Below are positions 6,222 through 19,501 of a stretch of DNA of 64,000 nucleotides, piece after piece (position 1 is the first letter of the stretch; each line of letters begins with the position of its first letter). Source of the DNA: Candidatus Poribacteria bacterium (GTDB taxonomy: Bacteria > Poribacteria > WGA-4E > PCPOR2b); NCBI GenBank assembly GCA_965198175.1, contig OZ240245.1, forward strand, positions 2,015,278 through 2,079,277, in the 5' to 3' direction. Made by a program: the position numbers and the translations under genes. The notes below the pieces were generated by a model that was not told where the DNA came from, ran no database searches, and saw only the letters and a program-made list of their open reading frames with translations.

Positions 6222-6483
6222 AAATAAGTCCTCACTTTAACAGATGCGTACTATCGTTCAATCCATGTTCAACGGCACAACCACTGTTCTAACATATTTC
6301 ATAACTGAGTGTAATAGCGTAATGCGTAAAGATATCAAGAGACTATACCGAAGCATTACGTATATTCTCGAACTCGATACATCGCGGCTTTGGAAATCCG
6401 TCTCTCAAATTTGACCAATATAACGTTGCGGCGACGGTGTCGGACATTTGACGCATTGTTGATTGTTCCGCACACTAGGTTAT

Positions 6484-6512
6484 ATTATAAAACTTTCGCC
6501 CGTTGTTGTCAA
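6484..6512 (-). promoter_or_regulatory. perfect consensus sigma70 promoter
   Basis: TTGACA-17 bp-TATAAT on the minus strand, about 260 bp upstream of the membrane-protein gene. Confidence 0.8.
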
Positions 6513-6714
6513 CACACTCAATGCTTGGCATTTTCAGTTGAAATTTGGGGTTTGTTGGGATATTATTTTAGTGCCACGATACGAAAACTTCATCCAGCAA
6601 TTCGAGCTTGTCAACACAACTTAGAAGACATAAAAGTCCAACCGAAATGACGGGGCTGTTTTTTGCTAAATAGGCACGCCCCTTGTCTGAGTTTCTATCT
6701 CTAGATTTTTTCTG

Positions 6715-6743
6715 TTGACATCTCTGATGTTTTTGATTAAGAT
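6715..6743 (+). promoter_or_regulatory. sigma70-type promoter of the molybdoenzyme operon
   Basis: TTGACA-17 bp-TAAGAT. Confidence 0.7.
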
Positions 6744-6858
6744 AAAGCGTGTGACAAACAAGTGCCGTAAAATGTGCAGCCCCGGTCGATGATCGGGATC
6801 CCACTGCGCTCACCAAGTTCCACTTGTGAACCATCTATCTTGAAAGGAGATTGATGCC

Positions 6859-7734
6859 TTGCGAGCGTTTGACTATATTCCCGCAAAAACCGTTAATGAG
6901 GCACTGGCTTTGCTCGCTGAAAAAGGCGATCAGGCAAAACCACTGAGCGGCGGAACAGATCTCATTGTTATGGTTAGAGAGGGCAGGCGGCAGTTAGAAT
7001 TGATGGTAGATGTCAAAGACATCCCCGAAACCAACGTGCTTGCGTATTCCCATGAAACCGGCTTACATCTCGGTGCGGCTGTACCCTGCTATAAAATCTA
7101 TGGAGATGATGCTATTTGCGCTGCATATCCGGGGCTTGCAGACGCTGCCAAGATTATCGGTGGCACCGCAATTCAAGGCAGGGCGAGTGTCGGCGGCAAT
7201 TTGTGCAACGCCTCGCCTGCTGCGGATACGATACCACCGTTGATTGTGCTAGAAACTACCTGCGTCATTGCGGGTCCAAACGGGACGCGCGAAGTCCCGG
7301 TAGTGCAGTTTTGTACAGGACCGGGGCAAACAGTCTTGGAACGGGGAGAATTTCTCCTATCGTTCAAGATTCCCCCACCAAAGAAAAATTCAAGTTCTTA
7401 TTATCTTCGATTCATCCCACGCAATGAAATGGACATCGCTGTTGTGGGCGCTGGCGCATCAGTCGTTCTGGACGACGCAAAATCGTCGTTCGTCTCAGCC
7501 CGAATCGGACTGGCTGCGGTCGCCCCAACACCATTATTCGCCGAGGAAGCCAGCGCGTCGCTTGCTGGGGTGGAAGTTTCCGACGAAGCAGTCAATGCAG
7601 CGGCTGAAGCAGCGCGCCAAATTGCCCGACCAATCAGCGACATGCGCGGAACGATTGAACAGAGGGTTCACCTCGTTGAAGTGCTGACGCGTCGCGCCTT
7701 AAATGGCGCAATTCAAAGAGTGAAGGAGTCGTGA
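6859..7734 (+). CDS. xanthine dehydrogenase family FAD-binding subunit (CoxM-like)
   Basis: LSGGTDL and ASVGGNLCNASPAAD FAD-binding motifs. Confidence 0.92.
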   Translation: MRAFDYIPAKTVNEALALLAEKGDQAKPLSGGTDLIVMVREGRRQLELMVDVKDIPETNVLAYSHETGLHLGAAVPCYKIYGDDAICAAYPGLADAAKIIGGTAIQGRASVGGNLCNASPAADTIPPLIVLETTCVIAGPNGTREVPVVQFCTGPGQTVLERGEFLLSFKIPPPKKNSSSYYLRFIPRNEMDIAVVGAGASVVLDDAKSSFVSARIGLAAVAPTPLFAEEASASLAGVEVSDEAVNAAAEAARQIARPISDMRGTIEQRVHLVEVLTRRALNGAIQRVKES

Positions 7735-7740
7735 AAATAG

Positions 7741-8229
7741 ATGCCCAGAAAAGTTCATGTTCAAACGACAATTAACGGCGAAACAGTTGAATTTCTGTGT
7801 GAGCCTCGCCAGAGCCTGCTTGAAGTCTTGCGAGATGAACTCGGGTTGACCGGCGCCAAAGAAGGATGCAACAACGGCAACTGCGGCGCTTGCAGCGTAA
7901 TGCTTGATGGACGGCTGGTCAATTCCTGTATTGTGCTTGGCGTTGAAATAGAAGGGAAATCGGTAGAAACCGTTGAAGGTCTCGCCGAACCGGGCAAACT
8001 CCATCCGATCCAGGAAATCTTCCTGGAAGACGCTGCGCTTCAGTGCGGTATCTGCACGCCCGGCTTTATCGTAGCAGCAAAGGCGCTGCTGGACAAAAAC
8101 CCTAACCCAACTGAGTACGAAGTCCGTTACTGGCTGGCAGGCAATCTGTGCCGTTGTACCGGTTACGATAAGATTGTCCGTGCTGTGCTCGATTCGGCTC
8201 AAATCGTGTCTTCGGAGGTAGGTACATAA
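7741..8229 (+). CDS. xanthine dehydrogenase family (2Fe-2S)-binding subunit (CoxS-like)
   Basis: GCNNGNCGAC, QCGICTPG and NLCRCTGY iron-sulfur motifs. Confidence 0.95.
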   Translation: MPRKVHVQTTINGETVEFLCEPRQSLLEVLRDELGLTGAKEGCNNGNCGACSVMLDGRLVNSCIVLGVEIEGKSVETVEGLAEPGKLHPIQEIFLEDAALQCGICTPGFIVAAKALLDKNPNPTEYEVRYWLAGNLCRCTGYDKIVRAVLDSAQIVSSEVGT

Positions 8230-10484
8230 TGTCAGAGAAGAAAGAATACAAAGTCCTCGGAACCCGTCCCATCCGTCACGACGGTGTCGATAAGGTGACA
8301 GGTCGTGCCCTCTACGGCGCAGACTTCCAAACCACAGGTCTGCTGCACGGCAAGGTTCTGCGCAGCCCACATGCCCATGCACGCATCAAATCGATTGACA
8401 CTAGCCGTGCAGAAGCCCATCCCGGTGTGAAAGCGGTCGTGACCGCGGAAGACCTCCCTACGGCGGCGGATAAAATCGCCGATCTCGGAGAGGGCGCGGT
8501 CAATCTGAAATATCTGTGTGATAATATTCTCGCGAGCGACAAAGCTCTCTACACAGGCCATGCAGTTGCTGCACTCGCAGCGAACGACCCCCACACCGCT
8601 GAAGAAGCGCTCGAACTCATTGATGTCGAGTACGAGTTGCTACCGCCGGTGCTTGAGGTGCGCGAAGCGATGAAAGATGATGCGCCGCTGCTGCATGAGA
8701 GTCTGAAAACCGACGCGATGGGAGAAAAGTCTGAAAAGTCGAGTAATATTGCGAGTCATTTCCAACACAAAAAGGGAGATATCGAGGTAGGTTTCGCAGA
8801 AGCAGATATTATCATTGAACACGATTTTGTCACAGGGACCGTGCATCAAGGCTACATTGAGCCTCACAATGCAACCGCGTTGTACAATCCCGACGGACAA
8901 CTCACCATCTGGTGCAGCACTCAAGGCGCATTTACAGTTCGGCAACAAATGGCAGAAATTCTCCAGATACCAATTTCCAAGATTAAAGTGGTGCCGATGG
9001 AGATTGGCGGCGGATTTGGCGGGAAGATTAGTGTTTACCTTGAGCCGGTTGCCGCGCTGCTTTCCAAGAAATCGGGTCGTCCTGTCAAGGTCTTGATGAA
9101 TCGGACAGAAGTTTTTGAAGCCACCGGACCAACCCCCGCATCTTACATCCGTGTAAAAATGGGAGTTACTAATGATGGGCGTATCACCGCGGCGGATGGA
9201 TACTTGGCTTTTGAAGCTGGCGCGTATCCGGGTTCACCCGTTGGCGCAGGAGCGATGTGTATTTTCTCTCCTTACAATATCCCCAATGGGCTGATTGATG
9301 GGTATGATGTTGTCGTTAATAAACCGAAAAGCAATGCATATCGCGCCCCCGGCGCAACAAATGCTGAGTTCGCCGCTGAAATCGTCGTTGATGAAATCTG
9401 TGAAAAAATCGGGATGGACCCGCTCGAATTCCGTATTCTCAACGCAGCAGAAGAGGGTGTCAGTCGTATTGATGGTCCGGTATTCCCGCGTATCGGTTGC
9501 ATCGAAACAACTGAAGCGGCAAAGGAACACCCGCACTACGCAGCTCCCCTCGAAGGGGAAAATAGAGGGCGCGGCGTCGCTTCCGGTTTCTGGTTCAATG
9601 TCGGTTTGAAATCAAGCGTCTCAATTAACGTGAACCCCGATGGGACGATAAGCCTTGTCGAAGGTTCGACTGACATCGGCGGCACACGGGCTTCGATTGC
9701 AATGCAAGCCGCGGAGGTATTGGGGATTCCCGCCGAAGCGGTTTATCCCACCGTGGTCGATACAAATTCGGTCGGTTATACAGATGTGACCGGTGGCAGC
9801 CGTACCACATTTTCGACGGGATACGCCGCTTATGAAGCCGCTCAGGATGTCAAGCGGCAGATGGTGGAACGCGCAGCAAAATTGTGGGACGTAGATTCAG
9901 GAGAGGTGCAGTTCGCCGACGGCGATTTTATATGCGTGAACGGCAAAGATGAACGTATGAGTTTCAAACAGTTGGCTGCGAGACTTGATGAGGTCGGTGG
10001 TCCAGTTACGGGACGCGCCTCCGTCGATCCAACGGGGGTTGGCGGCGCATTCGCAACCCATATCGTTGATGTTGAGGTCGATCCAGACACCGGGAAAGTT
10101 CAAATCCTGCGCTACACAGCGGCGCAAGACGCTGGAAAAGCCGTCCACCCCAGTTATGTCGAAGGGCAGATGCAAGGCGGCGTAACGCAAGGGATTGGCT
10201 GGGCGTTGAATGAGGAATATATCTACAACGACGAAGGAAGAATGACCAACGCTAGTTTCCTCGATTACCGCATGCCAACCTGCCTAGATTTGCCGATGAT
10301 TGACACGGTTATCGTTGAAGTTCCCAACCCTGGTCACCCGTATGGTGTCAGGGGTGTGGGGGAAGTCCCAATCGTTCCGCCCCCCGCAGCGATTGCCAAC
10401 GCAATATATCGTGCCGTAGGCGTTCGGATGAAAGAACTACCGATGTCACCTGGTCGGATCCTCAAAACGATGGGAAAGCTCTAA
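8229..10484 (+). CDS. xanthine dehydrogenase family molybdopterin-binding subunit
   Basis: GGGFGGK, AYRAPG and GVGE (catalytic Glu) motifs; start overlaps the upstream stop (TAATG). Confidence 0.93.
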   Translation: MSEKKEYKVLGTRPIRHDGVDKVTGRALYGADFQTTGLLHGKVLRSPHAHARIKSIDTSRAEAHPGVKAVVTAEDLPTAADKIADLGEGAVNLKYLCDNILASDKALYTGHAVAALAANDPHTAEEALELIDVEYELLPPVLEVREAMKDDAPLLHESLKTDAMGEKSEKSSNIASHFQHKKGDIEVGFAEADIIIEHDFVTGTVHQGYIEPHNATALYNPDGQLTIWCSTQGAFTVRQQMAEILQIPISKIKVVPMEIGGGFGGKISVYLEPVAALLSKKSGRPVKVLMNRTEVFEATGPTPASYIRVKMGVTNDGRITAADGYLAFEAGAYPGSPVGAGAMCIFSPYNIPNGLIDGYDVVVNKPKSNAYRAPGATNAEFAAEIVVDEICEKIGMDPLEFRILNAAEEGVSRIDGPVFPRIGCIETTEAAKEHPHYAAPLEGENRGRGVASGFWFNVGLKSSVSINVNPDGTISLVEGSTDIGGTRASIAMQAAEVLGIPAEAVYPTVVDTNSVGYTDVTGGSRTTFSTGYAAYEAAQDVKRQMVERAAKLWDVDSGEVQFADGDFICVNGKDERMSFKQLAARLDEVGGPVTGRASVDPTGVGGAFATHIVDVEVDPDTGKVQILRYTAAQDAGKAVHPSYVEGQMQGGVTQGIGWALNEEYIYNDEGRMTNASFLDYRMPTCLDLPMIDTVIVEVPNPGHPYGVRGVGEVPIVPPPAAIANAIYRAVGVRMKELPMSPGRILKTMGKL

Positions 10485-10505
10485 ATATCGGGCTGGTTAA
10501 AAAAA

Positions 10506-10540
10506 GTGCCTGCCCTTAATCGGAGCGAAGGGGCAGGCAC
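10506..10540. terminator. GC-rich hairpin, probable intrinsic terminator
   Basis: GTGCCTGCCCTT...AAGGGGCAGGCAC inverted repeat, preceded by an A-tract and followed by GTTT. Confidence 0.6.
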
Positions 10541-10597
10541 GTTTCACACACTATTCTCTGTATTCCCAACTTCCCCGCATTCATGAAAGGCTATACC

Positions 10598-10891
10598 ATG
10601 CCAATTGTATCAATCCCCTCCCTCATGCAGAATCTCACCAATGGCGTAGATAAAGTTAACGTGGACGGCAAAACACTGCGAGAAGTGATTTCCAATTTAG
10701 AGGAATCCTATCCAGGCTTTGCAGCACGTCTCTGCGATGGCGATCGAATTCGTCAAAATATCTCGTTGTACATTGACGGCATCATCTCACGGGAAGGGAT
10801 GCGTCAACTTGTAAAAGCAGATACGGAGATTCACTTTATCCCCGCCATCAGCGGTGGTTGCAGCCCCATACCTGCCAAGGTTAGTCAATAA
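10598..10891 (+). CDS. MoaD/ThiS family ubiquitin-like sulfur carrier with C-terminal extension after GG
   Basis: beta-grasp pattern ending EIHFIPAISGG, then CSPIPAKVSQ; follows the molybdoenzyme operon. Confidence 0.85.
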   Translation: MPIVSIPSLMQNLTNGVDKVNVDGKTLREVISNLEESYPGFAARLCDGDRIRQNISLYIDGIISREGMRQLVKADTEIHFIPAISGGCSPIPAKVSQ

Positions 10892-11127
10892 ATTGCCGTC
10901 TAGGCGCAGCACATTTGGGATCATGCTTAAATGGTGCCCAATTCTCGCCCAACTGCGCAATCCTTAGCGCTAGTGGATACGGCAAGGCATATCGCGTTCA
11001 CACCCCAACACCCCGCGCCTACTGTGGTACCCCCGCGTCGCCAAAGGGAAGCCCTCACAATTTCTTCGCAAGAATCGGTTGATTTGTAGACCAACCACCG
11101 CTAGTCCCATAGACAAACGGAGCAATC

Positions 11128-13221
11128 ATGACGCAACAAGACACCATCCAAACGATACTCAAGGACAGTGATTATCATCTTTCCTTGTTTAAGGAAAACG
11201 AGATTGAAGTGCTGTGCGACAATACCTTCATCAAAACTGTTAAAGGTGAAGAGAAGCCATTTGTAAACTGCATCGTGCGGGATAAAAGCATTCAGCTCAA
11301 ACCAGAAGAAGTCGTCCGCCAGCTTTATGCAGCGAGGCTAATCAATGAATACGGCTATCCCAAAACACGATTGGCTTTTGAGCATTCTGTAAACTTTGGT
11401 CGGCAGAAGAAAAGTGCCGATGTTGTTATCCTCGACAAAGACCGCCCTGATACTGCCTATATCATCGTTGAGTTGAAAAAACCCAAACTCAAGGACGGAA
11501 AAAACCAACTTAAATCCTACTGCAATGCGACCGGTGCCCCAATCGGTGTTTGGACAAACGGGGAGCAGATTTCTCATTACAATCGCAAGGATCCGAATTT
11601 CTTTGAAGAAATCACTGATATTCCCAACGTTGACCACGGTCTTGAGGATATCCTCGCCGAACACTTCACGCTGAAAGATCTAATTCTCAAAGACAAAATT
11701 GCCAATGAGCGGAAATCCTTGAAAAGCATCGTTCTGGAAATGGAGGATGAAGTACTGGCAAATGCTGGGGTGGATGTCTTTGAGGAGGTTTTCAAACTCA
11801 TATTCACCAAACTTTATGACGAATTCCGTAGTCGCGACGACAAGAAGGTAATCAACTATTTCTTGGCGCCAGTAATCAATACACTCGTGCATGATGAAGC
11901 CGACACGAACGATGTCGGCGCTGAAGATTACGATGTGCTCAAAGCAGAGGTTGCGAAGATTGTAGATGACCGCTTTCGAGTAATGGAGTTTAGGAATACC
12001 GGGCAGACCGACACCGAGCTAAAAGTTAAGATTCAGCGTCTTTTCGAAGCGGCGAAAAACCAATGGCCGGGCGTTTTTCCAGAAGGTGCTGCTTTTGAAC
12101 TCACGGACAGCCATTTAGCCATCTGTGTATCTAGCCTGCAAGATATAAAGCTCTTCAACTCCAATCTGCTGGTGGTGGATGAAGCTTTCGAATACTTGGT
12201 GAACAAATCCGCCAAAGGGGAAAAGGGGCAGTATTTTACACCCCGCCATGTGATTGATATGTGCGTTCAGATGCTGAATCCCCAACCCGGTGAGTATATG
12301 ATTGACACCGCGTCAGGCAGTTGTGGTTTCCCGGTGCATACCACTTTCAAAATCACCGGCCACCTTTTTTCCAATCAAGAAATCCCAGAAACAGATAAGC
12401 AGGAGGTACGCAAAGTCTTTGGCATTGACTTCGACGAAAAAACTGTGAGAGTTGCCAGAACATTGAACTTAATCGCCGGGGATGGAGAAAGCAACGTCTT
12501 ACATTTGAATACGTTGGATTTTGAACGTTGGAGGGACAGGACAGAGAGTGACAGAAAATGGATAAGAACTTATGGCGACGGCTTCTCGCGGTTGGAGAAA
12601 CTGAGAACCGACACAGAGGAAAATAAACGATTTAACTTTGATATCCTGATGGCAAATCCGCCCTTTGCTGGAGACATCAAAGAGAGCCGCCTGCTGCATC
12701 AATACCAACTCGGTTTCAAGGCAAACGGTGCGGCGCAGAGTAAAGTCGGGCGTGACATCTTGTTTATCGAGCGCAATCTGGACTTTCTCAAGCCCGGTGG
12801 ACGCATGGCGATTGTGTTGCCGCAGGGCAGATTCAACAACGCTTCCGACAAACGTATCCGCGATTATATCGCCGAACGTGCACGTATCCTTGCGGTCGTC
12901 GGTTTACATGGCAACACTTTCAAACCCCACACCGGCACGAAGACCAGCGTCCTGTTTGTGCAGAAGTGGGATGACAAGCTGTGTCCCAAAGTGGAAGACT
13001 ACCCGATTTTCTTTGCCGTGAGCGAAAAGGCTGGGAAAAACAATTCGGGTGATTATGTCTATGCAAAGAACTGTAACGGACAGTATAAATTAGACAATAA
13101 CGGCCATCTGATTGTTGAACATGATTTGCATAGCCATGAGGGAAAATTAGATGATGGCATCGCTGAAGCCTTTGTTGAGTGGGCAAAGGGTGAAAAATTG
13201 TCATTTTCGCGTGATGATTAA
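11128..13221 (+). CDS. fused restriction endonuclease (HsdR_N-like) / N6-adenine DNA methyltransferase, Type IIB-like R-M subunit
   Basis: N-terminal PEEVVRQ...ADVVI...IVELKK PD-(D/E)xK core; GQYFTPRHV, IDTASGSCGF (motif I) and NPPF (motif IV). Confidence 0.9.
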   Translation: MTQQDTIQTILKDSDYHLSLFKENEIEVLCDNTFIKTVKGEEKPFVNCIVRDKSIQLKPEEVVRQLYAARLINEYGYPKTRLAFEHSVNFGRQKKSADVVILDKDRPDTAYIIVELKKPKLKDGKNQLKSYCNATGAPIGVWTNGEQISHYNRKDPNFFEEITDIPNVDHGLEDILAEHFTLKDLILKDKIANERKSLKSIVLEMEDEVLANAGVDVFEEVFKLIFTKLYDEFRSRDDKKVINYFLAPVINTLVHDEADTNDVGAEDYDVLKAEVAKIVDDRFRVMEFRNTGQTDTELKVKIQRLFEAAKNQWPGVFPEGAAFELTDSHLAICVSSLQDIKLFNSNLLVVDEAFEYLVNKSAKGEKGQYFTPRHVIDMCVQMLNPQPGEYMIDTASGSCGFPVHTTFKITGHLFSNQEIPETDKQEVRKVFGIDFDEKTVRVARTLNLIAGDGESNVLHLNTLDFERWRDRTESDRKWIRTYGDGFSRLEKLRTDTEENKRFNFDILMANPPFAGDIKESRLLHQYQLGFKANGAAQSKVGRDILFIERNLDFLKPGGRMAIVLPQGRFNNASDKRIRDYIAERARILAVVGLHGNTFKPHTGTKTSVLFVQKWDDKLCPKVEDYPIFFAVSEKAGKNNSGDYVYAKNCNGQYKLDNNGHLIVEHDLHSHEGKLDDGIAEAFVEWAKGEKLSFSRDD

Positions 13222-13345
13222 TGGTCCCAACAGAATTCAAATCGGCTATAGAATTAGGTTTACTCGCAAGCAGGATATTCGCGCTCATTTTCATGACACG
13301 GCGTATATTTTATAAAACATAGTCGTTTCAGGTGGGGGATAACTA

Positions 13346-14755
13346 GTGCATTTTTCAATTGCCGCTTATTCGGAATTAGAACGAACCAAGAGAATTGATG
13401 CTGAATTTTTTTTGCCTGTGTATCGTGAATTGAATAAGGTGTTGTCTGCGAAGACAGTTCAGCCATTAACGGCATTGTGCAATGTATCAGATGGCAATCA
13501 TATGTCGGTCGCTCATCATTTTCAGGACGAAAAGGGTATTCCTTATTTTCGAGGACAAGATATCAATACAGATTTCTTTATTGAGAATGCCACACCTACA
13601 TTCATCCCGGAGAACATTTACGCCCTCCCCTATATGAAAAGGTCATGGTTTCAAAATGGAGATATATTGTTATCTATCGTTGGGACAATTGGGAGCTTGT
13701 CTATTGTCACGGATAAAATCAAGAAATCTACTGGAAGTTGCAAAATTGCTATTCTTCGCCCCAAGAGAAAGAGTAGTGAATATATTGCTACCTTTCTACA
13801 ATCAAAATATGGCCAATTCCAAATAAAGCGAAATACGAGAGGTGCAGTTCAGCAAGGTCTTCTTTTGGAAGACATGGAGCAGATTAAGGTTTATATTCCA
13901 TCAGAAAAGTTGGAGAAATCCATCTGCAGAGATATCCAAGCTTCTATTGAATTAAATAGATCTTCAACAGAGATGTACAGAGAAGCCCAAACCCTCCTAC
14001 TTTCAGAACTCGGACTTAACGACTGGCAACCCAAACACCGGCTGACCTTTGTCAAAAACTACTCCGACGCTGAACAAGCTGATCGCATCGATGCAGACTA
14101 TTTTCAACCAAAATATGAGGAAATTGTCCAAATTATCAAAAGCTATTCTGGCGGTTGGGATACGCTGGGGAATCTGGTGACAATAAGGAAATGTGTAGAG
14201 GTGGGAAGCAAAGAATACCGTACCGAGGGTGTTCCTTTTGTGCGTGTGAGCAATCTAAGCCCTTTTGAAATCACCGAAGAAAAGTACATTTCCGAGGAAT
14301 TGTATGGAAAAATTATACAGTATCAACCTGAACAGGGCGAGATACTATTCAGCAAAGACGCAACCCCAGGCATAGCCTATTACTTGAGCGAACAACCCAA
14401 GAAAATGATACCCTCTGGCGGGATACTCCGCCTGAGAAGCAAAACGAATAAAATCAAGAACGAATATTTGATGCTTGTGCTCAATTCAATACTGACAAGA
14501 GAACAAGTAAACCGTGATGTCGGGGGATCCTTAATTCTACATTGGCGCCCAGAACTGGTCAAAGCAACAGTCATTCCATTGTTACCCGAAGAAAAACAAA
14601 TCCAAATCCAGCAGAAGGTCATTGAATCCTTTAGCTTGCGAAGACAGTCCAATCACCTAGTGGAATGTGCCAAGCACGCGGTGGAGATGGCCATTGAGCA
14701 AGACGAACAAACCGCGATTGACTGGCTGGAAAATAAAACGCAGGAGGTAACCTGA
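13346..14755 (+). CDS. restriction-modification specificity (S) subunit with two target-recognition domains
   Basis: Repeated RIDAEFF / RIDADYF conserved blocks flanking two variable regions; visibly AT-rich; GTG start after GGGGGA. Confidence 0.85.
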   Translation: MHFSIAAYSELERTKRIDAEFFLPVYRELNKVLSAKTVQPLTALCNVSDGNHMSVAHHFQDEKGIPYFRGQDINTDFFIENATPTFIPENIYALPYMKRSWFQNGDILLSIVGTIGSLSIVTDKIKKSTGSCKIAILRPKRKSSEYIATFLQSKYGQFQIKRNTRGAVQQGLLLEDMEQIKVYIPSEKLEKSICRDIQASIELNRSSTEMYREAQTLLLSELGLNDWQPKHRLTFVKNYSDAEQADRIDADYFQPKYEEIVQIIKSYSGGWDTLGNLVTIRKCVEVGSKEYRTEGVPFVRVSNLSPFEITEEKYISEELYGKIIQYQPEQGEILFSKDATPGIAYYLSEQPKKMIPSGGILRLRSKTNKIKNEYLMLVLNSILTREQVNRDVGGSLILHWRPELVKATVIPLLPEEKQIQIQQKVIESFSLRRQSNHLVECAKHAVEMAIEQDEQTAIDWLENKTQEVT

Positions 14756-16080
14756 TGAACATCACTCAATTCACAATAGAGGAAGTACGCTGTTTTGCCG
14801 GACGGCAAGAGTTCAACATTCGTCCCTTAACGTTTTTAGTCGGGGAAAATAGTACCGGCAAGACCACAACATTGGCGTGTTTTGAGATGTTAGCAAATTA
14901 CTTGGCAACGGGAGAAATAGATTTTAATTCGCACCCTTATTCAATGGGAATCTTTAAAGATATTGTCAGAAGGACCACAAAAAAAGACAAAGCCTTTAAG
15001 CTTGGACTTGCCTTTAGGTGGCCTGGGAAAACTGGTCCCGTTGAACATACCGTTGAATTTGTTGAAAAAGAGGGAGGCATTGAACCCGCTGTCAGGTCAG
15101 TGACGCTGAAATTCACTGACGGCGAAATCGTGATTAGCGCTGATGATACAAGGGAAGAGGGTGTGCCTTTCATCTCCTGTGATAAAGAACAGAATCAGTA
15201 TCGTATAGGAGTGCATTCTGCTATTCTAGATAGGCGCTCGCCACTCTTCTTTTTAGACAGACCTGTTCATAGAGAGGAACAGCCGTCTGATGGCGAAATG
15301 GCCTTAGCGAACTATTTACAGGAGAAGCGTGGAGGTATGATATACCCATCGTGGAGGACAAGGGCTGGCGCCGTATTTAGTACTTCGCCGGTTCGTTCTC
15401 AACCGAAGCGGACCTATGACCCGACAAGGGAATTTGATGACCCTGAGGGCAGCGATATTCCGATGCGGTTAATGCGGATAAAGGCTACGGATGAAAAGAA
15501 ATGGGAAGACTTGAAAGCGGAGTTGGTTAAATTTGGTAAAAGCTCGGGTCTTTTTCAGAACATAGAGGTTAAAAACCTTGGTAGATCTATGGGCAGCTCA
15601 TTCCAATTGACAGTCAAAGTAAGGGGACCAAACTCCAATATCATTGATGTTGGCTACGGAGTCAGTCAAATTTTGCCGATTTTGGTGTATATTTTTGATC
15701 AGCCTGTCTCTCGGCGGCGTATTTATAGAAGCGGAAGAATTCCCTTCTTTCTATTACAACAACCTGAGGTCCATCTGCACCCGAGGGCGCAGGCAGAACT
15801 CTCTTCTTTACTAGCTAAGTCGGCACGCCGGGGTCCGAGTGGGTGGACCTTCATTGTTGAAACGCACAGTGACTATATGATTGACCGGGCACGCGTTGAA
15901 ATCAGGAAAGGCAATATCCGCCCTGAAGATGTGTCGCTGATATATCTGGAGCCAAAGGGGCGTGTTGTCAAGGTGCATAATATCAGTTTTGATAAGATGG
16001 GCAATATGGAGGGGGTGCCGCCGCATTACAGAGAATTTTTCCTGAACGAAACCGACCGCCTCATGGGTTTTGAGGATTAA
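14755..16080 (+). CDS. ABC/AAA_21-type ATPase (DUF3696-like C-terminus)
   Basis: Walker A GENSTGKTT, signature-like DVGYGVSQILP, Walker B region LLQQPEVHLHP, H-loop VETHSDY; ATG overlaps the S-subunit stop (TGATG). Confidence 0.88.
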   Translation: MNITQFTIEEVRCFAGRQEFNIRPLTFLVGENSTGKTTTLACFEMLANYLATGEIDFNSHPYSMGIFKDIVRRTTKKDKAFKLGLAFRWPGKTGPVEHTVEFVEKEGGIEPAVRSVTLKFTDGEIVISADDTREEGVPFISCDKEQNQYRIGVHSAILDRRSPLFFLDRPVHREEQPSDGEMALANYLQEKRGGMIYPSWRTRAGAVFSTSPVRSQPKRTYDPTREFDDPEGSDIPMRLMRIKATDEKKWEDLKAELVKFGKSSGLFQNIEVKNLGRSMGSSFQLTVKVRGPNSNIIDVGYGVSQILPILVYIFDQPVSRRRIYRSGRIPFFLLQQPEVHLHPRAQAELSSLLAKSARRGPSGWTFIVETHSDYMIDRARVEIRKGNIRPEDVSLIYLEPKGRVVKVHNISFDKMGNMEGVPPHYREFFLNETDRLMGFED

Positions 16081-16082
16081 TT

Positions 16083-16517
16083 ATGTGTATTATCTTGGAC
16101 ACCAACGCGTTTGGTGAATTTAAAAAACGAGACAAGGGGAAGAAAAACAAACACATGGCGCCTATATGGAATTGGTTGGACGGAAAGCACGGCAAAATTG
16201 TCTATTCTCCTACCGAGAAGATCAAAAGAGAATGGCTAAAGGGAGGAATGAAAAATCATATGAGAACATTAAATCAAGCCGGGAAACTCAAACTTATTCC
16301 CGCTAAGGATGTACAAGCGAAAGCTAATGTATTAGACCAAACAGGTGCACTCAAATCTGATGACGCACATATTATCGCGCTGGCGATGATTGCGAGAGTA
16401 GAGGTATTGGTCTCCGCTGACAAGGCATTGCACGCCGATTTTAGGGCTATGGTCGGGGGCGAAGTGTACATGACAAAAAGCCATTCGCACTTGCTGACTA
16501 GAGATACCTGCCCTTAG
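16083..16517 (+). CDS. PIN-domain protein (putative ribonuclease)
   Basis: ILDTN...KREW...SDDAHII...VSADK acidic tetrad typical of the PIN fold; starts 2 nt after the ATPase stop. Confidence 0.8.
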   Translation: MCIILDTNAFGEFKKRDKGKKNKHMAPIWNWLDGKHGKIVYSPTEKIKREWLKGGMKNHMRTLNQAGKLKLIPAKDVQAKANVLDQTGALKSDDAHIIALAMIARVEVLVSADKALHADFRAMVGGEVYMTKSHSHLLTRDTCP

Positions 16518-16694
16518 TAGGGAATAACGATCCTTACGCTGGGATCCCAACATGCACTTATCCCAAAAACCGACATATGCCAAGCGAGCGGTAGAGATTG
16601 GTGGGCTTCATCGTTAGGTGTTTCACCCTTCCTTGCCGTTGAGGCCTGGGGATATTCGCCGTAACCTAACGCAGCAAACACACAGGAGAATCAC

Positions 16695-17156
16695 ATGACA
16701 GATGTCAAATCGTTGGTAGTTGGCATGGATGCGCCGGACTTAGAGATGGAAGATGCGGATGGCGTTGTCCATCGCCTGCGCGATTACGTCGGGAAGAAAA
16801 ACGTCGTTCTGGCGTTTTATCCCAAAGACTTTACCAGTGGCTGAACGGCGGAGGTTTGCTCGCTCCGGGATGAGTCGAGCCAATTTGCAGCGCACGATGT
16901 ACAAGTTTTCGGTGTTAGTGTACAGGACGCTGAAAGCCACAAAAAGTTTGCGGAACAGTACGACCTGAACTTTCCGCTTCTTGTAGACACGGACCGCTCA
17001 TTCAGCTTGCTATTCGGCGCTACTGACCAGCCGGATGGCATGAGTAGCCGTATGACGGTCGTCATTGATAAAGCCGGAAAGATTATCAAGCTTGATAAGC
17101 AGGTCAACGCGAAAGCGCACGGCAAAGATTTAATCGACTTCTTCGAGTCGAGGTAA
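16695..17156 (+). CDS. selenocysteine-containing peroxiredoxin (BCP/PrxQ, AhpC-TSA family), 153 aa, copy 1
   Basis: RBS CAGGAG, ATG 16695; FYPKDFTSG-U(TGA 16842-16844)-TAEVCSLRD matches BCP FYPKDxTPGCTxEAC; frame continues with DLNFPLLVD and RMTVVIDKAG to TAA 17156. Confidence 0.9.
16858..16880 (+). promoter_or_regulatory. bacterial SECIS-like hairpin
   Basis: GCTCG-CTC-[CGGGAT]-GAG-T-CGAGC; loop starts 22 nt after the UGA with G in the second loop position, consistent with the bacterial SECIS model. Confidence 0.7.
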
Positions 17157-17240
17157 TCCGATAACGCTCTCGAACGCGGAACGTTTGCCCGACTTTTACC
17201 GCTAGCCGGTATTCGACATGAAAACTGGCGCTTTTTGCGC

Positions 17241-18150
17241 TCGGGATCGCCTCCGGGGGAAAAGTGATTCACAAGGAAACTTCCTTCAACTGCCATCCCT
17301 CCGATTTCAACTAAATCTGGTCTATCCCAGCCATCGGCACCGAGGAACGTTGCTAGAATGCTGAAATCGGCGGACTTTGCCTGCTTAACTGCCACCGGGA
17401 ATTCGGAACCCAAGCCGGCGAGAAAGACAACATCAACCGCAGGATCAACTGCGGCAATTGGTGTCAGTTGCTCGGTAAAATCTGTTGCGCCCGTGACGTA
17501 AAATTGTTGAATTGTAATTGTGCCGCCTTGCGCAGAAAAATGTTTAAATAAAAGCCTTCGAAACTCCCTCCGAGTAAGCATCACCTATTTCTGTGAGCAC
17601 TGCCGCCGTCGATGCCCCCAACTGTTGCGTAGCGAATCTAGCTACCACCCCCGCCTGAAACGGATCGGTGTAGGCACCCATGAACGAAAAATTTACCGGG
17701 CCGGTAACTTTAGGATTTGTTGGATAGGTTGTAACCATCGGAACGCCGTGCTGTAAAGCAACCTTGCCCACCACCACACCTTCTTCATCGTAGTCGGGAC
17801 CAACGATTGCGGATACGCCCGCAGCAATCAGTTCTTCTGCGTGTTGGGCGCTGAGTGAAGGATTCCTTTTGTCATTTCGAACGAGGGGTTCTATCGGTAT
17901 GCCGCTTATGCCTCCGGTTTCATTTGCAAGGGCGACAGCCAACTCGGCACCATTCCGAGTCGTGCCTGGATCAGGCGGACTATAGCGGACTATAAATGAA
18001 ACCTATTTTGACTGTTACTGCGCTGTCAAGTGTTTCCGAATCTGCTGAAGCAGTGAACTGTTGAATCAGCTCGCCCCCTAAAATGAAAATGCCCATTAAG
18101 AAAAATGAGGCAATGCACCTGAACGTTGTTCTGTGCTGTTGAAACATCAT
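17241..18150 (-). pseudogene. branched-chain amino acid ABC transporter substrate-binding protein (LivJ-like) pseudogene
   Basis: Signal-peptide start ATG 18150; 10-bp tandem duplication GCGGACTATA (17975-17994) and a +1 T near 17547 break the frame; 3' end truncated at SPGGDPE by the duplicated block. Confidence 0.85.
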
Positions 18151-18334
18151 AAGGATTTCCTACTCATTTGATGTAACCTCTAGAAACTGTGATTGAACCT
18201 TAGTATACCAGAGTATACCAGAAAACGCAGCCGATTCCAAGCGGGTCGAATTGCTGTACCTGTTCCCCGGATGTGAGCCAATTCATTTTCGTCAGTGGTG
18301 CACTTGATGCGAACGCGATTCCATACAGACCCTG

Positions 18335-18658
18335 TTAATCTTCGATGAAAGAGGTTGTTCGAGATTTAACAACCTTATAGACAGTTTCGCCAGGTTTGAT
18401 AAAACCAAATTGTCGTACGAGACGCTCTTGGTTGAGTTCGTCGCTCTTGAGTTTTTCTGCCCTCAATTTCAGGCGATCCCGTTTCTGCTCAAGTTCCCCT
18501 AATTTCTCCAGATAGTCCTGCTTAACCTGACGCGCTTTTTGCCAATTCTGAAATTCTTCGACGAATCGATATGAACTGATAAGTAACACAGGAAGTGTAA
18601 CTATGAACAGCCAAGATTGAAGAAATCGCATGATGTCCCTTCCATTAATGCTTAACAC
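18335..18658 (-). CDS. septum formation initiator family protein (FtsB/DivIC-like)
   Basis: TM helix, coiled coil and RQFGFIKPGETVY motif. Confidence 0.8.
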   Translation of the reverse strand: MLSINGRDIMRFLQSWLFIVTLPVLLISSYRFVEEFQNWQKARQVKQDYLEKLGELEQKRDRLKLRAEKLKSDELNQERLVRQFGFIKPGETVYKVVKSRTTSFIED

Positions 18659-18703
18659 ACATGCTTGTATCCCGCGAAATTAGGGAACATTTTATGTTGG
18701 TTA

Positions 18704-19501
18704 TTACTGAGAACCTGAACCCCAGAGTTCACGATTATCGGTTAAAATCTCCGGACCATCGGAAAGGATTGCGACAGTATGTTCAAAGAGAGCGGATAGG
18801 CGACGATCCGCCGTGACGGCAGTCCAGCCATCTTCGAGCGTTACTGCTTCGTGTGTGCCTGCGTTGGTCATGGCTTCTATGGCAAGGACTGTACCAGGTC
18901 TTAATCGAATGCCTCTACCGGGCTCCCCGTAATTAGGGATTTGAGGTTCCTCGTGTAGATTGCGCCCAATTCCATGACCAACAAAATCCCGAACAGCTGA
19001 GAATCCGTGCGCTTCGACATGGGTTTGCAACGCGGAACAAGCGTCGCCGAGTCGACTGCCCGGCTTTGCAGCATCAATCGCTTTATAGAGCGCGTCTTTG
19101 GTCACGTCAAGTAGACTATGCGCTTCAGGCGAAATATCTCCGACAGGAAAAGTGAAGGCATTATCCCCATGAAATCCTCCGAGAAAGATTGCCGTGTCAA
19201 TGCCAATGATGTCACCCTCTTTTAGTAAACAGTCTTTACTTGGAATGCCGTGAACAATCTCCTCGTTAATTGAAACGCAGATAGTTGCTGGATAGGGCGG
19301 ATGATTCGGGAGCTGATACCCTAAGAAGGATGAAATACCGCCAATTTCCTTAATCGCTTCTCGCGATATTTGATCTAATTCGTAGGTTGAAATACCGGGT
19401 CTTACAGCCTCTCCAATTCTCTGAAGTACAATCGATGCCGCTTTACCACTGCGGCGCATTGTCTCGATTTCAGATTGCGACTTGATTCTGACCTTTCTCA
19501 T
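18704..19501 (-). CDS. map: methionine aminopeptidase type I
   Basis: CVSINEEIVHGIP, GFHGDNA, FVGHGIG, HEEPQ, AIEAM and FEHTV metal-binding motifs. Confidence 0.95.
   Translation of the reverse strand: MRKVRIKSQSEIETMRRSGKAASIVLQRIGEAVRPGISTYELDQISREAIKEIGGISSFLGYQLPNHPPYPATICVSINEEIVHGIPSKDCLLKEGDIIGIDTAIFLGGFHGDNAFTFPVGDISPEAHSLLDVTKDALYKAIDAAKPGSRLGDACSALQTHVEAHGFSAVRDFVGHGIGRNLHEEPQIPNYGEPGRGIRLRPGTVLAIEAMTNAGTHEAVTLEDGWTAVTADRRLSALFEHTVAILSDGPEILTDNRELWGSGSQ

What the first reader, a model, noticed from the sequence alone, without database searches (positions are those of the whole stretch)
11128..16517. Candidate new defence system: Type IIB-like R-M translationally coupled to an ABC ATPase plus PIN nuclease
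Seen: R-M fusion, S subunit, ATPase and PIN in one operon; the ATPase ATG overlaps the S stop (TGATG at 14753-14757) and PIN starts 2 nt after the ATPase stop. Established: ABC-ATPase sensors paired with nuclease effectors guard R-M systems (PrrC = ABC ATPase plus HEPN tRNase inside EcoprrI; PARIS AriA/AriB senses the anti-restriction protein Ocr; Septu pairs PtuA with HNH). Inference: this ATPase-PIN pair could be an analogous second-line or abortive module that releases PIN RNase activity when restriction is inhibited. I do not recognise it as a named system.
Basis: partly seen in the sequence, partly recalled or inferred. Interest (0 to 1): 0.8.

Follow-up and report, generated by a model that had tools for sequence, protein, structure and literature searches.

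The report
R-M operon carrying ATPase–PIN defence pair
A restriction-modification operon in a sponge-symbiont genome is followed by a two-gene ATPase plus PIN-nuclease pair; the pair usually occurs without this R-M, and it is a new variant of a recently described kind of anti-phage module, not a new four-gene system.

Summary

They form two separable modules:
- **R-M module.** A BsaXI/BcgI-like Type IIB-like R-M. The RM fusion has intact nuclease and methylase motifs, and the S subunit has two target-recognition domains.
- **ATPase–PIN pair.** An ABC ATPase of the NsnB/DUF3696 type, followed 2 nt later by a stand-alone PIN protein of 144 aa with intact D-E-D-D residues.

The ATPase–PIN pair is the conserved unit. 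It is present in all 84 related loci fetched, with the ATPase stop and PIN start 0-4 nt apart. The PIN family has about 1,200 clusters at 50% identity.

The window's type of R-M lies upstream only in one ATPase clade of 15 loci. There it looks ancestral and has been lost repeatedly, leaving stubs of the S gene's 3' end.

Elsewhere the pair sits next to housekeeping genes or next to other R-M types, including once inside a Type III Mod/Res pair.

A validated system with the same logic already exists: HEC-03 (Payne et al. 2024) is an ABC ATPase plus PIN pair found embedded in R-M-like systems. Menshen NsnB-NsnC is the closest ATPase relative. The PIN here belongs to neither partner family.

Verdict: a new variant of a known kind. 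A role as guard of the R-M is possible but untested.

The parts
11128..13221 (+). RM fusion protein (697 aa) of a Type IIB-like (BsaXI/BcgI-like) enzyme. It has an N-terminal PD-(D/E)xK nuclease (D98, E115, K117) and a gamma-class N6-adenine methyltransferase (IDTAxGSxGF, NPPF at 510-513).
   Evidence: Pfam HSDR_N_2 and N6_Mtase. PADLOC MTase_I model PDLC03034, E=3e-285. Best solved relative is RM.BsaXI (1.1e-19), and its N-terminal nuclease stretch also aligns. The motifs are invariant in 8 homologues.
13346..14755 (+). Specificity (S) subunit, 469 aa, with two target-recognition domains. GTG start preceded by GGTGGGGG.
   Evidence: Two Methylase_S stretches. PADLOC Specificity_I models down to 7.6e-45. 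Internal 34-nt repeat at 13447-13480 and 14637-14670.
14531..14755 (+). 3' end of the S gene. Relatives that have lost RM and most of S keep this segment as a stub directly upstream of the ATPase gene. It contains the AGGAGG ribosome-binding site for the ATPase.
   Evidence: blastn of the window against L001: similarity resumes at window 14531. tblastn finds S remnants in L001, L019, L038, L011, L033 and L059. The upstream sequence is conserved.
14753..14757 (+). TGATG, where the S stop overlaps the ATPase start.
   Evidence: Read directly. Relatives L008, L021 and L026 have the equivalent ATGA overlap.
14755..16080 (+). ABC ATPase (441 aa) of the NsnB/DUF3696 type. Walker A is GENSTGKT. Walker B is degenerate: LLQQPE, with QQ in place of DE. 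The signature motif is GYGxSQ, an Arg replaces the Q-loop Gln, and the H-loop is ETHSD.
   Evidence: Pfam AAA_15 and AAA_21. PADLOC NsnB 3e-38 over the full length, PDC-M55A 9e-36, HEC-03B 1e-19. The motifs are invariant in 78 homologues. It aligns with DUF3696 proteins of HEC-03 and PDC-M55. The AlphaFold2 model (pLDDT 67.7) matches Rad50, SMC and PtuA heads.
16072..16085 (+). ATPase-PIN junction, GAGGATTAAttATG. The last ATPase codons (GAG GAT) form a Shine-Dalgarno-like GAGGA, followed by the TAA stop, 2 nt and the PIN ATG.
   Evidence: The same junction, with a gap of 0-4 nt, is present in nearly all of the 84 related loci.
16083..16517 (+). Stand-alone PIN-fold nuclease (144 aa) with conserved D6, E50, D94 and D113 (plus D119), and invariant Cys2 and Cys143-Pro144.
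   Evidence: Alignment A1. AlphaFold2 pLDDT 93.7. Top Foldseek matches are VapC, HARP and Nob1 PIN domains. A profile search finds 1,786 representatives at 50% identity with E<=1e-3, and the best 150 are all stand-alone proteins of about 140-150 aa.

Best explanation
The region holds two separable defence-type modules that became joined in one lineage.

**Module 1** is a BsaXI/BcgI-like Type IIB-like restriction-modification enzyme. One polypeptide carries both the nuclease and the methylase, and a separate S subunit sets the target sequence.

**Module 2** is an autonomous two-gene cassette: an NsnB/DUF3696-type ABC ATPase and a small, catalytically intact PIN nuclease, translated as a tightly coupled pair.

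**Proposed mechanism (inferred, not shown).** This rests on homology to Menshen NsnB-NsnC and HEC-03, and on analogy to PARIS and Septu.
- The ATPase oligomer holds the PIN inactive through its C-terminal DUF3696-like tails.
- An infection cue changes the ATPase's nucleotide state or conformation.
- The PIN is then released or activated and cleaves RNA (tRNA, rRNA or mRNA), which stops translation and aborts the infection.
- The invariant QQ in place of the Walker B DE dyad suggests that the ATPase acts as an ATP-binding switch rather than as a fast hydrolase.

**Joining of the two modules.** In the window's clade the cassette was captured directly behind the S gene. The resulting four-gene unit spread between chromosomal sites and phyla. 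RM and S were later lost several times, while the pair and an S stub that carries its ribosome-binding site were kept.
For: **Shown: the pair is the conserved unit**
- The pair is conserved in 84 of 84 loci, with the stop and start 0-4 nt apart.
- 322 species-level genomes encode a relative of the PIN, and 1,222 representatives at 50% identity match at E<=1e-10.
- Distant members (33% identity) are still preceded by the ATPase.

**Shown: the R-M link is confined to one clade**
- All loci with the window-type RM/S or its remnants fall in one clade of 15 on the ATPase tree.
- L001 lies at the same chromosomal site (XDH-ThiS) but lacks RM and most of S, keeping a stub.
- L019 and L021 show the same contrast at another site.
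- The same R-M family occurs alone on plasmids.

**Shown: protein features**
- PIN fold and catalytic residues.
- The ATPase shares the motif deviations typical of NsnB, aligned here with HEC-03 and PDC-M55 ATPases.
- The nearest annotated relatives are DUF3696 proteins.

**From the literature**
- HEC-03 protects E. coli against phage, and both genes are required (10.1101/2024.01.29.577857).
- The NsnB4-NsnC2 model has the DUF3696 tails clamping the PIN-like domain (PMC12065111).

**R-M affinity of the pair**
- It is embedded between the Mod and Res genes of a Type III system in L081.
- It lies next to an ISP-type methylase in L052 and L043, and next to a Res gene in L065.
- MmeI-type enzymes lie about 3.5 kb away in 4 loci.
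- 23 of 83 loci have an R-M gene from my panel within 10 kb.
Against: - No experiment exists for this family, so the defence role is inferred only.
- Most relatives sit among housekeeping genes and are syntenic across many Poribacteria and Latescibacterota species. That is unusual for fast-turnover defence genes.
- The PIN shows no sequence-level relation to the HEC-03 PIN (hhalign probability 0.3%) or to any PADLOC partner model except a weak PDC-M11A hit.
- Pfam DUF3696 is not detected in the window ATPase, and only weakly (E=0.004) in a distant family member.
- The ATPase model is of moderate confidence (pLDDT 67.7), and no complex prediction could be run.
Confidence: 0.6

Rival explanations
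1. Integrated four-component system. The ATPase-PIN pair is a dedicated guard of this Type IIB-like enzyme. It contacts the RM/S complex and fires its RNase when an anti-restriction protein inhibits the enzyme, as in PrrC-EcoprrI. Alternatively, RM-S takes the place of Menshen's NsnA as the DNA sensor.
For: - The S-ATPase stop/start overlap is kept in all four relatives with an intact junction (window, L008, L021, L026).
- The four-gene unit occurs at three or more chromosomal sites and in a Bacteroidota MAG (L026).
- The pair recurs immediately next to other R-M types, including inside a Type III Mod/Res pair.
- PARIS and PrrC are precedents for triggering by Ocr or Stp (cited).
Against: - About 60 of 83 related loci have no panel R-M gene within 10 kb.
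- RM-S was lost 5 or more times while the pair was kept.
- Other genes are inserted between S and the ATPase in L011, L033 and L059 without loss of the pair.
- The same overlap occurs with a sulfatase gene.
- The partner R-M types are heterogeneous, which argues against a specific protein contact.
Confidence: 0.15
2. Toxin-antitoxin-like addiction module. The PIN is a VapC-like toxin and the ATPase is its proteinaceous antitoxin. The pair persists because it is hard to lose, and it stabilises whatever lies next to it, without sensing phage.
For: - The pair is retained after the neighbouring R-M is lost.
- It persists for a long time in housekeeping contexts.
- The PIN resembles VapC in structure.
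- Several copies have decayed: an IS insertion in L082 and truncations in L048, L057 and L071.
Against: - There is no VapB-type antitoxin.
- The gene order is ATPase then PIN with strict coupling, and the ATPase has a conserved nucleotide-binding site. Both are typical of sensor ATPase plus effector defence systems.
- Copies in which the ATPase is broken but the PIN is kept (L082, L048) would be lethal if the ATPase were a simple antitoxin, unless the PIN is also inactive.
Confidence: 0.12
3. A housekeeping or regulatory RNase, for example ATP-gated RNA processing or a stress response in sponge symbionts, that merely lies next to an R-M here.
For: - The pair is syntenic and apparently vertically inherited across many Poribacteria and Latescibacterota species, next to sulfatase, TPP-enzyme, VWA/BatA and cupin genes.
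- No homologue was found in the phage or plasmid collections.
Against: - The ATPase belongs to a clade known so far only from defence systems (Menshen, HEC-03, PDC-M55).
- There were repeated independent captures next to, or inside, R-M operons.
- The cassette is only about 72% identical where the flanks are 83-87% identical, which indicates exchange at a hotspot.
- It occurs patchily across six or more phyla.
Confidence: 0.08

Closest known systems
HEC-03 (Payne, Hughes, Fineran, Jackson 2024, bioRxiv 10.1101/2024.01.29.577857)
   Same: - A two-gene system: a DUF3696-type ABC ATPase followed by an overlapping small PIN-domain protein.
- It was discovered embedded inside R-M-like (Hma) systems.
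- Its ATPase shares the (E/Q)QPExHLHP Walker B, the GxGxSQ signature and the Arg in place of the Q-loop Gln.
   Different: - The window ATPase matches the PADLOC HEC-03 ATPase model only partly (1e-19, against 3e-132 for a true member).
- It is 21-23% identical to HEC-03 ATPases.
- The PIN is an unrelated sequence family (no PADLOC hit; hhalign probability 0.3%) and is shorter (144 aa against 177 aa).
- The HEC-03 loci examined carry an RNA ligase gene downstream. The window does not.
Menshen NsnB-NsnC (Millman 2022; Li et al. 2025, PMC12065111)
   Same: - NsnB is the best PADLOC match of the ATPase (3e-38, full length).
- Both have a non-DE Walker B, a GxG signature and an Arg in place of the Q-loop Gln.
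- In both, the partner immediately downstream has a PIN fold.
- 27.9% of Menshen operons lie near BREX or R-M systems.
   Different: - There is no NsnA (ParB-DUF262) sensor gene.
- The partner is a stand-alone PIN with intact catalytic residues, not an inactive PIN fused to a C-terminal toxin domain.
PARIS (AriA/AriB), Septu (PtuA/PtuB) and PrrC
   Same: The logic is the same: an ABC ATPase controls a nuclease effector. PARIS and PrrC are triggered by anti-restriction proteins, and prrC is embedded in a Type Ic hsd operon.
   Different: - The AriA models match only the C-terminal ATPase motifs (4.5e-20).
- The effector is a PIN, not a Toprim (AriB), an HNH (PtuB) or a fused HEPN-like anticodon nuclease (PrrC).
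BsaXI / BcgI Type IIB restriction-modification enzymes
   Same: An RM polypeptide with an N-terminal PD-ExK nuclease and a gamma-class N6A methylase, plus a separate S subunit with two target-recognition domains and no translocase subunit. RM.BsaXI is the best solved relative.
   Different: - Similarity to BsaXI is low (1e-19, mainly in the methylase core).
- Closer relatives are annotated only as 'N-6 DNA methylase'.
- The recognition site and the cleavage pattern are unknown.
- The protein also resembles MADS MAD2 and MAD5, but scores below the family cut-offs.

Membership tests
Type IIB R-M (BcgI/BsaXI-like) | One polypeptide carrying both a PD-(D/E)xK nuclease and an N6-adenine methyltransferase | tested here: met
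   HSDR_N_2 at 59-166 and N6_Mtase at 350-623. D98, E115, K117 and NPPF are invariant in 8 homologues. The nuclease stretch aligns with that of RM.BsaXI.
Type IIB R-M (BcgI/BsaXI-like) | Separate specificity subunit with two target-recognition domains | tested here: met
   Two Methylase_S stretches. Full-length matches to Specificity_I models.
Type IIB R-M (BcgI/BsaXI-like) | No HsdR-type translocase partner | tested here: met
   None of the 19 window ORFs scanned (the ten around the locus and nine other large ones) has a ResIII or helicase domain. Not every ORF of the window was scanned.
Type IIB R-M (BcgI/BsaXI-like) | Cuts on both sides of the recognition site | not testable with these tools
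   Needs enzyme assays.
HEC-03 | ABC ATPase of the HEC-03 family | tested here: inconclusive
   The PADLOC HEC-03 ATPase model matches at 1.1e-19 over residues 257-424 only. The NsnB and PDC-M55A models score better. True members score 2.7e-132. The shared motifs are shown.
HEC-03 | PIN partner of the HEC-03 family | tested here: not met
   No PADLOC hit to the HEC-03 PIN model. Profile-profile comparison of A1 with A5 gives probability 0.3%.
HEC-03 | Phage protection that needs both genes | not testable with these tools
   Shown for HEC-03 in E. coli. Untested for this pair.
Menshen (NsnABC) | NsnA sensor with ParB-DUF262 and ParBDB domains directly upstream of NsnB | tested here: not met
   The genes upstream are the S subunit and the RM fusion. 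Among the neighbour-cluster representatives annotated with Pfam none is a DUF262 protein.
Menshen (NsnABC) | NsnB-type ABC ATPase (non-DE Walker B, GxG signature, Arg in place of the Q-loop Gln, DUF3696 tail) | tested here: met
   PADLOC NsnB 3e-38 over 2-343 of 345 model positions. QQPE, GYG and R214 are invariant. The DUF3696 tail is seen only by alignment to DUF3696 proteins and a weak Pfam hit in a family member.
Menshen (NsnABC) | NsnC: an inactive PIN-like N-terminal domain fused to a C-terminal toxin domain | tested here: not met
   The partner is 144 aa, consists of a PIN domain only, and has D6, E50, D94 and D113 conserved. The best 150 family representatives are all stand-alone.
PARIS | AriA ATPase plus AriB (DUF4435/Toprim) effector | tested here: not met
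   The AriA models match only the C-terminal part (4.5e-20). The partner has a PIN fold, not a Toprim fold.
MADS | Eight-gene mad1-mad8 cluster, with MAD2, MAD3 and MAD5 at family score | tested here: not met
   MAD2 scores 284 bits against a cut-off of 720, MAD5 171 against 400, and MAD3 19 against 420. No further mad genes lie nearby.
VapBC toxin-antitoxin | Small VapB antitoxin gene directly upstream of the PIN toxin | tested here: not met
   The gene upstream is the 441-aa ABC ATPase, in all 84 loci.

The most novel reading that the evidence does not exclude
In the clade that includes the window, the ATPase-PIN pair has become a true accessory of the Type IIB-like enzyme. Either it monitors the RM/S complex and fires its RNase when an anti-restriction protein blocks restriction, or it uses the DNA-bound RM/S complex as its sensor in place of Menshen's NsnA. 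More broadly, this large PIN/ATPase family would be a general 'R-M guard' that works with Type IIB, Type III and ISP-like enzymes.
Probability: 0.13. Interest if true: 0.7.

Novelty: new variant of a known kind. Interest (0 to 1): 0.4.

Why it matters
- **An unmodelled family.** The ATPase-PIN pair is large: about 1,200-1,800 clusters at 50% identity and 322 species-level genomes. It is especially common in sponge symbionts. Its PIN matched no model above cut-off in Pfam, NCBIfam or PADLOC-DB v2, so the defence annotation tested here (PADLOC-DB v2 models) does not call it as a system.
- **A link between Menshen and HEC-03.** The pair has the ATPase type of Menshen NsnB and a stand-alone PIN that is catalytically intact. 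It could show what the NsnB-NsnC module looked like before the PIN became an inactive adaptor.
- **A natural data set for an open question.** The pair was captured repeatedly next to or inside R-M operons of different types. It also survived after the R-M was lost. These cases bear on why defence genes embed in R-M systems, and on whether ABC-ATPase modules guard restriction.

Tried and rejected
- **Promoter and terminator scan of 10800-16900.** Counts were no higher than in shuffles, so it says nothing about the operon structure.
- **Rfam scan of 9000-19000.** No match.
- **Repeats flanking the cassette.** The only candidate is an imperfect 24-nt pair sharing ATACCTGCC at 10868 and 16504. I treat it as chance, not as an att site.
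- **Sequence search of solved structures.** A profile of the PIN family found nothing meaningful. The ATPase found only a marginal OLD-family hit.
- **PIN against the plasmid and phage collections.** No match.
- **Literature.** A search for 'PDC-M55' found no paper. The search for MADS papers was swamped by plant MADS-box papers. The ABC ATPase classification of Krishnan et al. 2020 (PMC7544218) is not held.
- **MADS membership.** Considered because of the MAD2 and MAD5 hits. Rejected because the scores are far below the cut-offs and the other mad genes are absent.
- **A conserved third component.** I considered the small membrane protein of cluster c3, which lies upstream in about 16 Poribacteria loci. 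I rejected it because it is clade-specific, varies in copy number and is absent from the window.
- **Complex prediction.** An ATPase-PIN or ATPase-S complex could not be predicted with the tools on hand.

Full report
**1. Observation**

The four ORFs are at the stated coordinates, all on the + strand.

| Gene | Coordinates | Length |
|---|---|---|
| RM fusion | 11128-13221 | 697 aa |
| S subunit | 13346-14755 (GTG start) | 469 aa |
| ATPase | 14755-16080 | 441 aa |
| PIN | 16083-16517 | 144 aa |

- The S stop and the ATPase start share TGATG at 14753-14757, with AGGAGG nine bases upstream.
- The ATPase stop TAA (16078-16080) is followed 2 nt later by the PIN ATG.
- Pfam gives HSDR_N_2 plus N6_Mtase for the first protein, two Methylase_S stretches for the second, and AAA_15/AAA_21 for the third. 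For the fourth it gives only sub-threshold PIN and DUF4411 hits.
- The flanks are housekeeping genes. Upstream lie xanthine-dehydrogenase-family genes and a ThiS-like gene. Downstream lie a truncated AhpC/TSA fragment, Map and MiaB. The other large ORFs I scanned in the window carry no defence-type domain.

**2. The R-M module**

- The RM fusion has an intact PD-(D/E)xK motif (D98, E115, K117), an AdoMet-binding motif and NPPF. All are invariant in eight homologues of 56-80% identity.
- Its best solved relative is the RM subunit of the Type IIB enzyme BsaXI, and the N-terminal nuclease stretch aligns as well.
- NCBIfam sees a resemblance to MADS MAD2 and MAD5, but far below the family cut-offs.
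- The same RM family occurs without any ATPase-PIN pair. On a Klebsiella pneumoniae plasmid it appears as RM plus S. On Picosynechococcus pAQ6 it is a single, longer (1,179-aa) protein that extends well beyond the RM region.

**3. The PIN**

- 107 homologues were found by word-indexed search. A profile search of 1.84 billion representatives found 1,786 at E<=1e-3 and 1,222 at E<=1e-10. The best 150 are all stand-alone proteins of about 140-150 aa.
- The alignment shows invariant D6, D113 and D119, and nearly invariant E50 and D94. Cys2 and the C-terminal Cys143-Pro144 are also invariant.
- The AlphaFold2 model has pLDDT 93.7.
- The conserved acidic residues sit where the PIN catalytic residues should be: D6 after strand 1, E50 in a helix, D94 at a helix start and D113 after a strand.
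- The best Foldseek matches are VapC toxins, HARP RNase P and Nob1, with probability about 1 and TM-score 0.5-0.59.
- It is therefore a PIN-fold protein with an apparently active site. This differs from the inactive PIN-like domains of Menshen NsnC (PMC12065111).

**4. The ATPase**

- The best PADLOC hits are NsnB (3e-38, full length) and PDC-M55A (9e-36), followed by AriA and HEC-03B with partial coverage.
- Across 78 homologues the following are invariant:
  - Walker A GENSTGKT;
  - the signature DVGYGxSQ;
  - the Walker B region LLQQPExHLHP;
  - the H-loop ETHSD.
- These are the deviations described for NsnB: a non-DE Walker B, a GxG signature and an Arg in place of the Q-loop Gln.
- The DUF3696 ATPases of HEC-03 and PDC-M55 share them, with EQPE at the Walker B position.
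- The nearest annotated relatives in the plasmid collection are 'DUF3696 domain-containing proteins' at 21-29% identity. By PADLOC these are HEC-03 (Azotobacter and Aeromonas plasmids) and PDC-M55 (Bacillus plasmids).
- Pfam does not detect DUF3696 in the window protein. It scores E=0.004 in a distant family member.
- The AlphaFold2 model is of moderate quality (pLDDT 67.7) and matches Rad50, SMC and PtuA heads.

**5. The conserved unit is the pair**

- A scan of one genome per species found 322 loci that encode a relative of the PIN. The best 80 are mostly sponge-associated MAGs: Poribacteria, Latescibacterota, Caldilineaceae, Binatia, Alpha- and Gammaproteobacteria and Flavobacteriales.
- In all 84 loci fetched, the ATPase gene lies directly upstream of the PIN.
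- The stop and start are 0-4 nt apart, and the junction GAGGAT-TAA-nn-ATGTGT is conserved.
- A member with only 33% identity is still paired with the ATPase.

**6. How the window's type of R-M relates to the pair**

- **Distribution.** Full RM plus S of the window's family occurs in the window and in L008, L011, L021, L026 and L033. L059 has the S gene only.
- **Remnants.** Remnants of the last 30-75 codons of S lie directly upstream of the ATPase in L001, L019 and L038. They also lie there in L011, L033 and L059, where other genes have been inserted between S and the ATPase.
- **One clade.** On a neighbour-joining tree of the ATPase, all these loci form a single clade of 15. The other 63 loci have neither RM/S nor remnants.
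- **L001, at the same site as the window.**
  - The left flank is 83-87% identical.
  - RM and most of S are replaced by a Laminin_G_3 gene.
  - Similarity resumes at window 14531, inside S, at only about 72% identity.
  - There is no similarity to the right of the PIN.
- **L019 and L021** show the same contrast at another site.
- **L026** carries the four-gene unit on a 2.25-Mb contig assigned to Owenweeksia, a member of the Bacteroidota.
- **Reading.** A four-gene cassette is ancestral to this clade. It moved between sites and phyla and then lost RM-S repeatedly. The pair was kept, together with a stub that carries its ribosome-binding site.

**7. Neighbours elsewhere**

- The largest neighbour clusters are metabolic genes: TPP enzyme, VWA/BatA, sulfatase, 2-hydroxyacid dehydrogenase, cupin, oxidoreductases, Ogt and Fur.
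- In 9 Latescibacterota loci a sulfatase gene overlaps the ATPase start by 4 nt. The ATPase begins ATGA(A/G)C, so a stop/start overlap is not in itself evidence of functional coupling.
- A PADLOC scan of 140 neighbour-cluster representatives covered 548 of the 686 neighbour ORFs. Its 25 most frequent families were almost all methyltransferase or R-M families, each matched by no more than 7 representatives.
- Follow-up of those hits found the following:
  - L081: the pair lies between a Type III Mod gene (0 nt upstream) and a Res gene (7 nt downstream).
  - L052 and L043: an N6_Mtase plus Type_ISP_C protein lies 105-264 nt upstream.
  - L065: a Res gene lies 55 nt downstream.
  - Four Latescibacterota loci: an MmeI-type enzyme lies about 3.5 kb upstream.
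  - L004, L025 and others: further methylases lie nearby.
- In total 23 of 83 loci, counting the window, have an R-M gene from my panel within 10 kb. This is a lower bound and is not corrected for relatedness.
- The pair therefore has a real but partial affinity for R-M loci of several types.

**8. Comparison with known systems**

- Payne et al. (bioRxiv 10.1101/2024.01.29.577857) described HEC-03. It is an ABC ATPase plus a VapC-like PIN protein, found embedded in Hma (helicase-methylase-ATPase) systems. It reduces plaquing in E. coli, and both genes are required.
- Li et al. (PMC12065111) modelled Menshen as an NsnB tetramer whose DUF3696 tails clamp the PIN-like domain of NsnC. They note that 27.9% of Menshen operons lie near BREX or R-M systems.
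- The window pair has the same logic and the same ATPase clade. It fails membership of both on defining features:
  - it has no NsnA;
  - it has a stand-alone active PIN in place of NsnC;
  - its PIN family shows no profile-level similarity to the HEC-03 PIN.
- It also fails the tests for PARIS, MADS and VapBC.

**9. Mechanism**

- Shown:
  - two separable modules;
  - a strictly coupled ATPase-PIN pair;
  - a PIN fold with conserved acidic residues;
  - a conserved nucleotide-binding site with a non-canonical Walker B.
- Inferred from homologues: the ATPase oligomer sequesters the PIN through its C-terminal tails. It then releases or activates the PIN on an infection cue, and RNA cleavage aborts the infection.
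- The invariant QQ in place of DE resembles the classical hydrolysis-dead E-to-Q mutation. This suggests an ATP-binding switch, which is speculation.
The recurrent R-M adjacency makes it reasonable. The many stand-alone copies and the repeated loss of RM-S argue against an obligatory tie to this enzyme.

**10. Verdict**

- This is not a new four-gene system. It is a Type IIB-like R-M operon carrying an embedded ATPase-PIN module.
- That module is a new, large and unmodelled variant of the HEC-03/Menshen-type ABC-ATPase-plus-effector kind.
- Interest is moderate.

Noticed in passing
window 16695-16844 and 16817-17584 (- strand): A 49-aa N-terminal fragment of an AhpC/TSA peroxiredoxin ends in a stop directly after the PIN gene. 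A partial Peripla_BP_6 ORF follows on the other strand. This is gene debris on the right side of the cassette.
   Followed up: partly
window 6004-16537 compared with L001: The left flank is 83-87% identical to a Poribacteria MAG, but the S-stub/ATPase/PIN segment is only about 72% identical, and nothing matches to the right. The cassette seems to have been exchanged at a chromosomal hotspot downstream of the ThiS-like gene.
   Followed up: partly
window 16086-16088 and 16509-16514 (PIN residues C2, C143, P144): Cys2 and the C-terminal Cys-Pro are invariant in all 41 aligned PIN homologues. A disulfide, a metal site or a contact with the ATPase are all possible. Unexplained.
   Followed up: no
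L081 6560-13090: In a Gammaproteobacteria MAG the ATPase-PIN pair lies between a Type III Mod gene (which overlaps the ATPase start) and a Res gene 7 nt after the PIN. This is a clear case of embedding inside an R-M operon.
   Followed up: partly
L003, L005, L007, L009, L010, L014, L015, L017, L023 (upstream of the ATPase): In Latescibacterota a sulfatase gene lies directly upstream of the ATPase. In most of these loci it overlaps the ATPase start by 4 nt (ATGA), because the ATPase begins ATGAAC or ATGAGC.
   Followed up: yes
L088 6876-7568 and L089 6298-6999: HEC-03 loci on Azotobacter and Aeromonas plasmids carry an RNA ligase family gene (PF09414) directly after the PIN gene. This hints at an RNA target and at RNA repair.
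   Followed up: no
L026 6123-6695, L011 5103-6371, L008 6975-7328, L033 7696-8430: Relatives of the R-M operon carry other cargo between RM and S, or between S and the ATPase: DUF4145, DUF5677, a RAYT-like transposase and a trypsin-like protease. The operon is a repeated site of gene insertion.
   Followed up: partly
L082 8409-9668; also L048, L057, L071: The ATPase gene is interrupted by an insertion of about 1.26 kb in L082, which was not annotated, and is truncated or frameshifted in three other loci, while the PIN ORF stays intact.
   Followed up: no
window 23804-25009: A DnaA-family protein (Bac_DnaA plus Bac_DnaA_C, 401 aa) lies about 7 kb downstream. The cumulative GC skew has its minimum near 6-7 kb, so the window may lie close to a replication origin.
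   Followed up: no
window 34460-36445: A 661-aa protein made almost entirely of WD40 repeats. A similar WD40 protein lies near the pair in L064.
   Followed up: no
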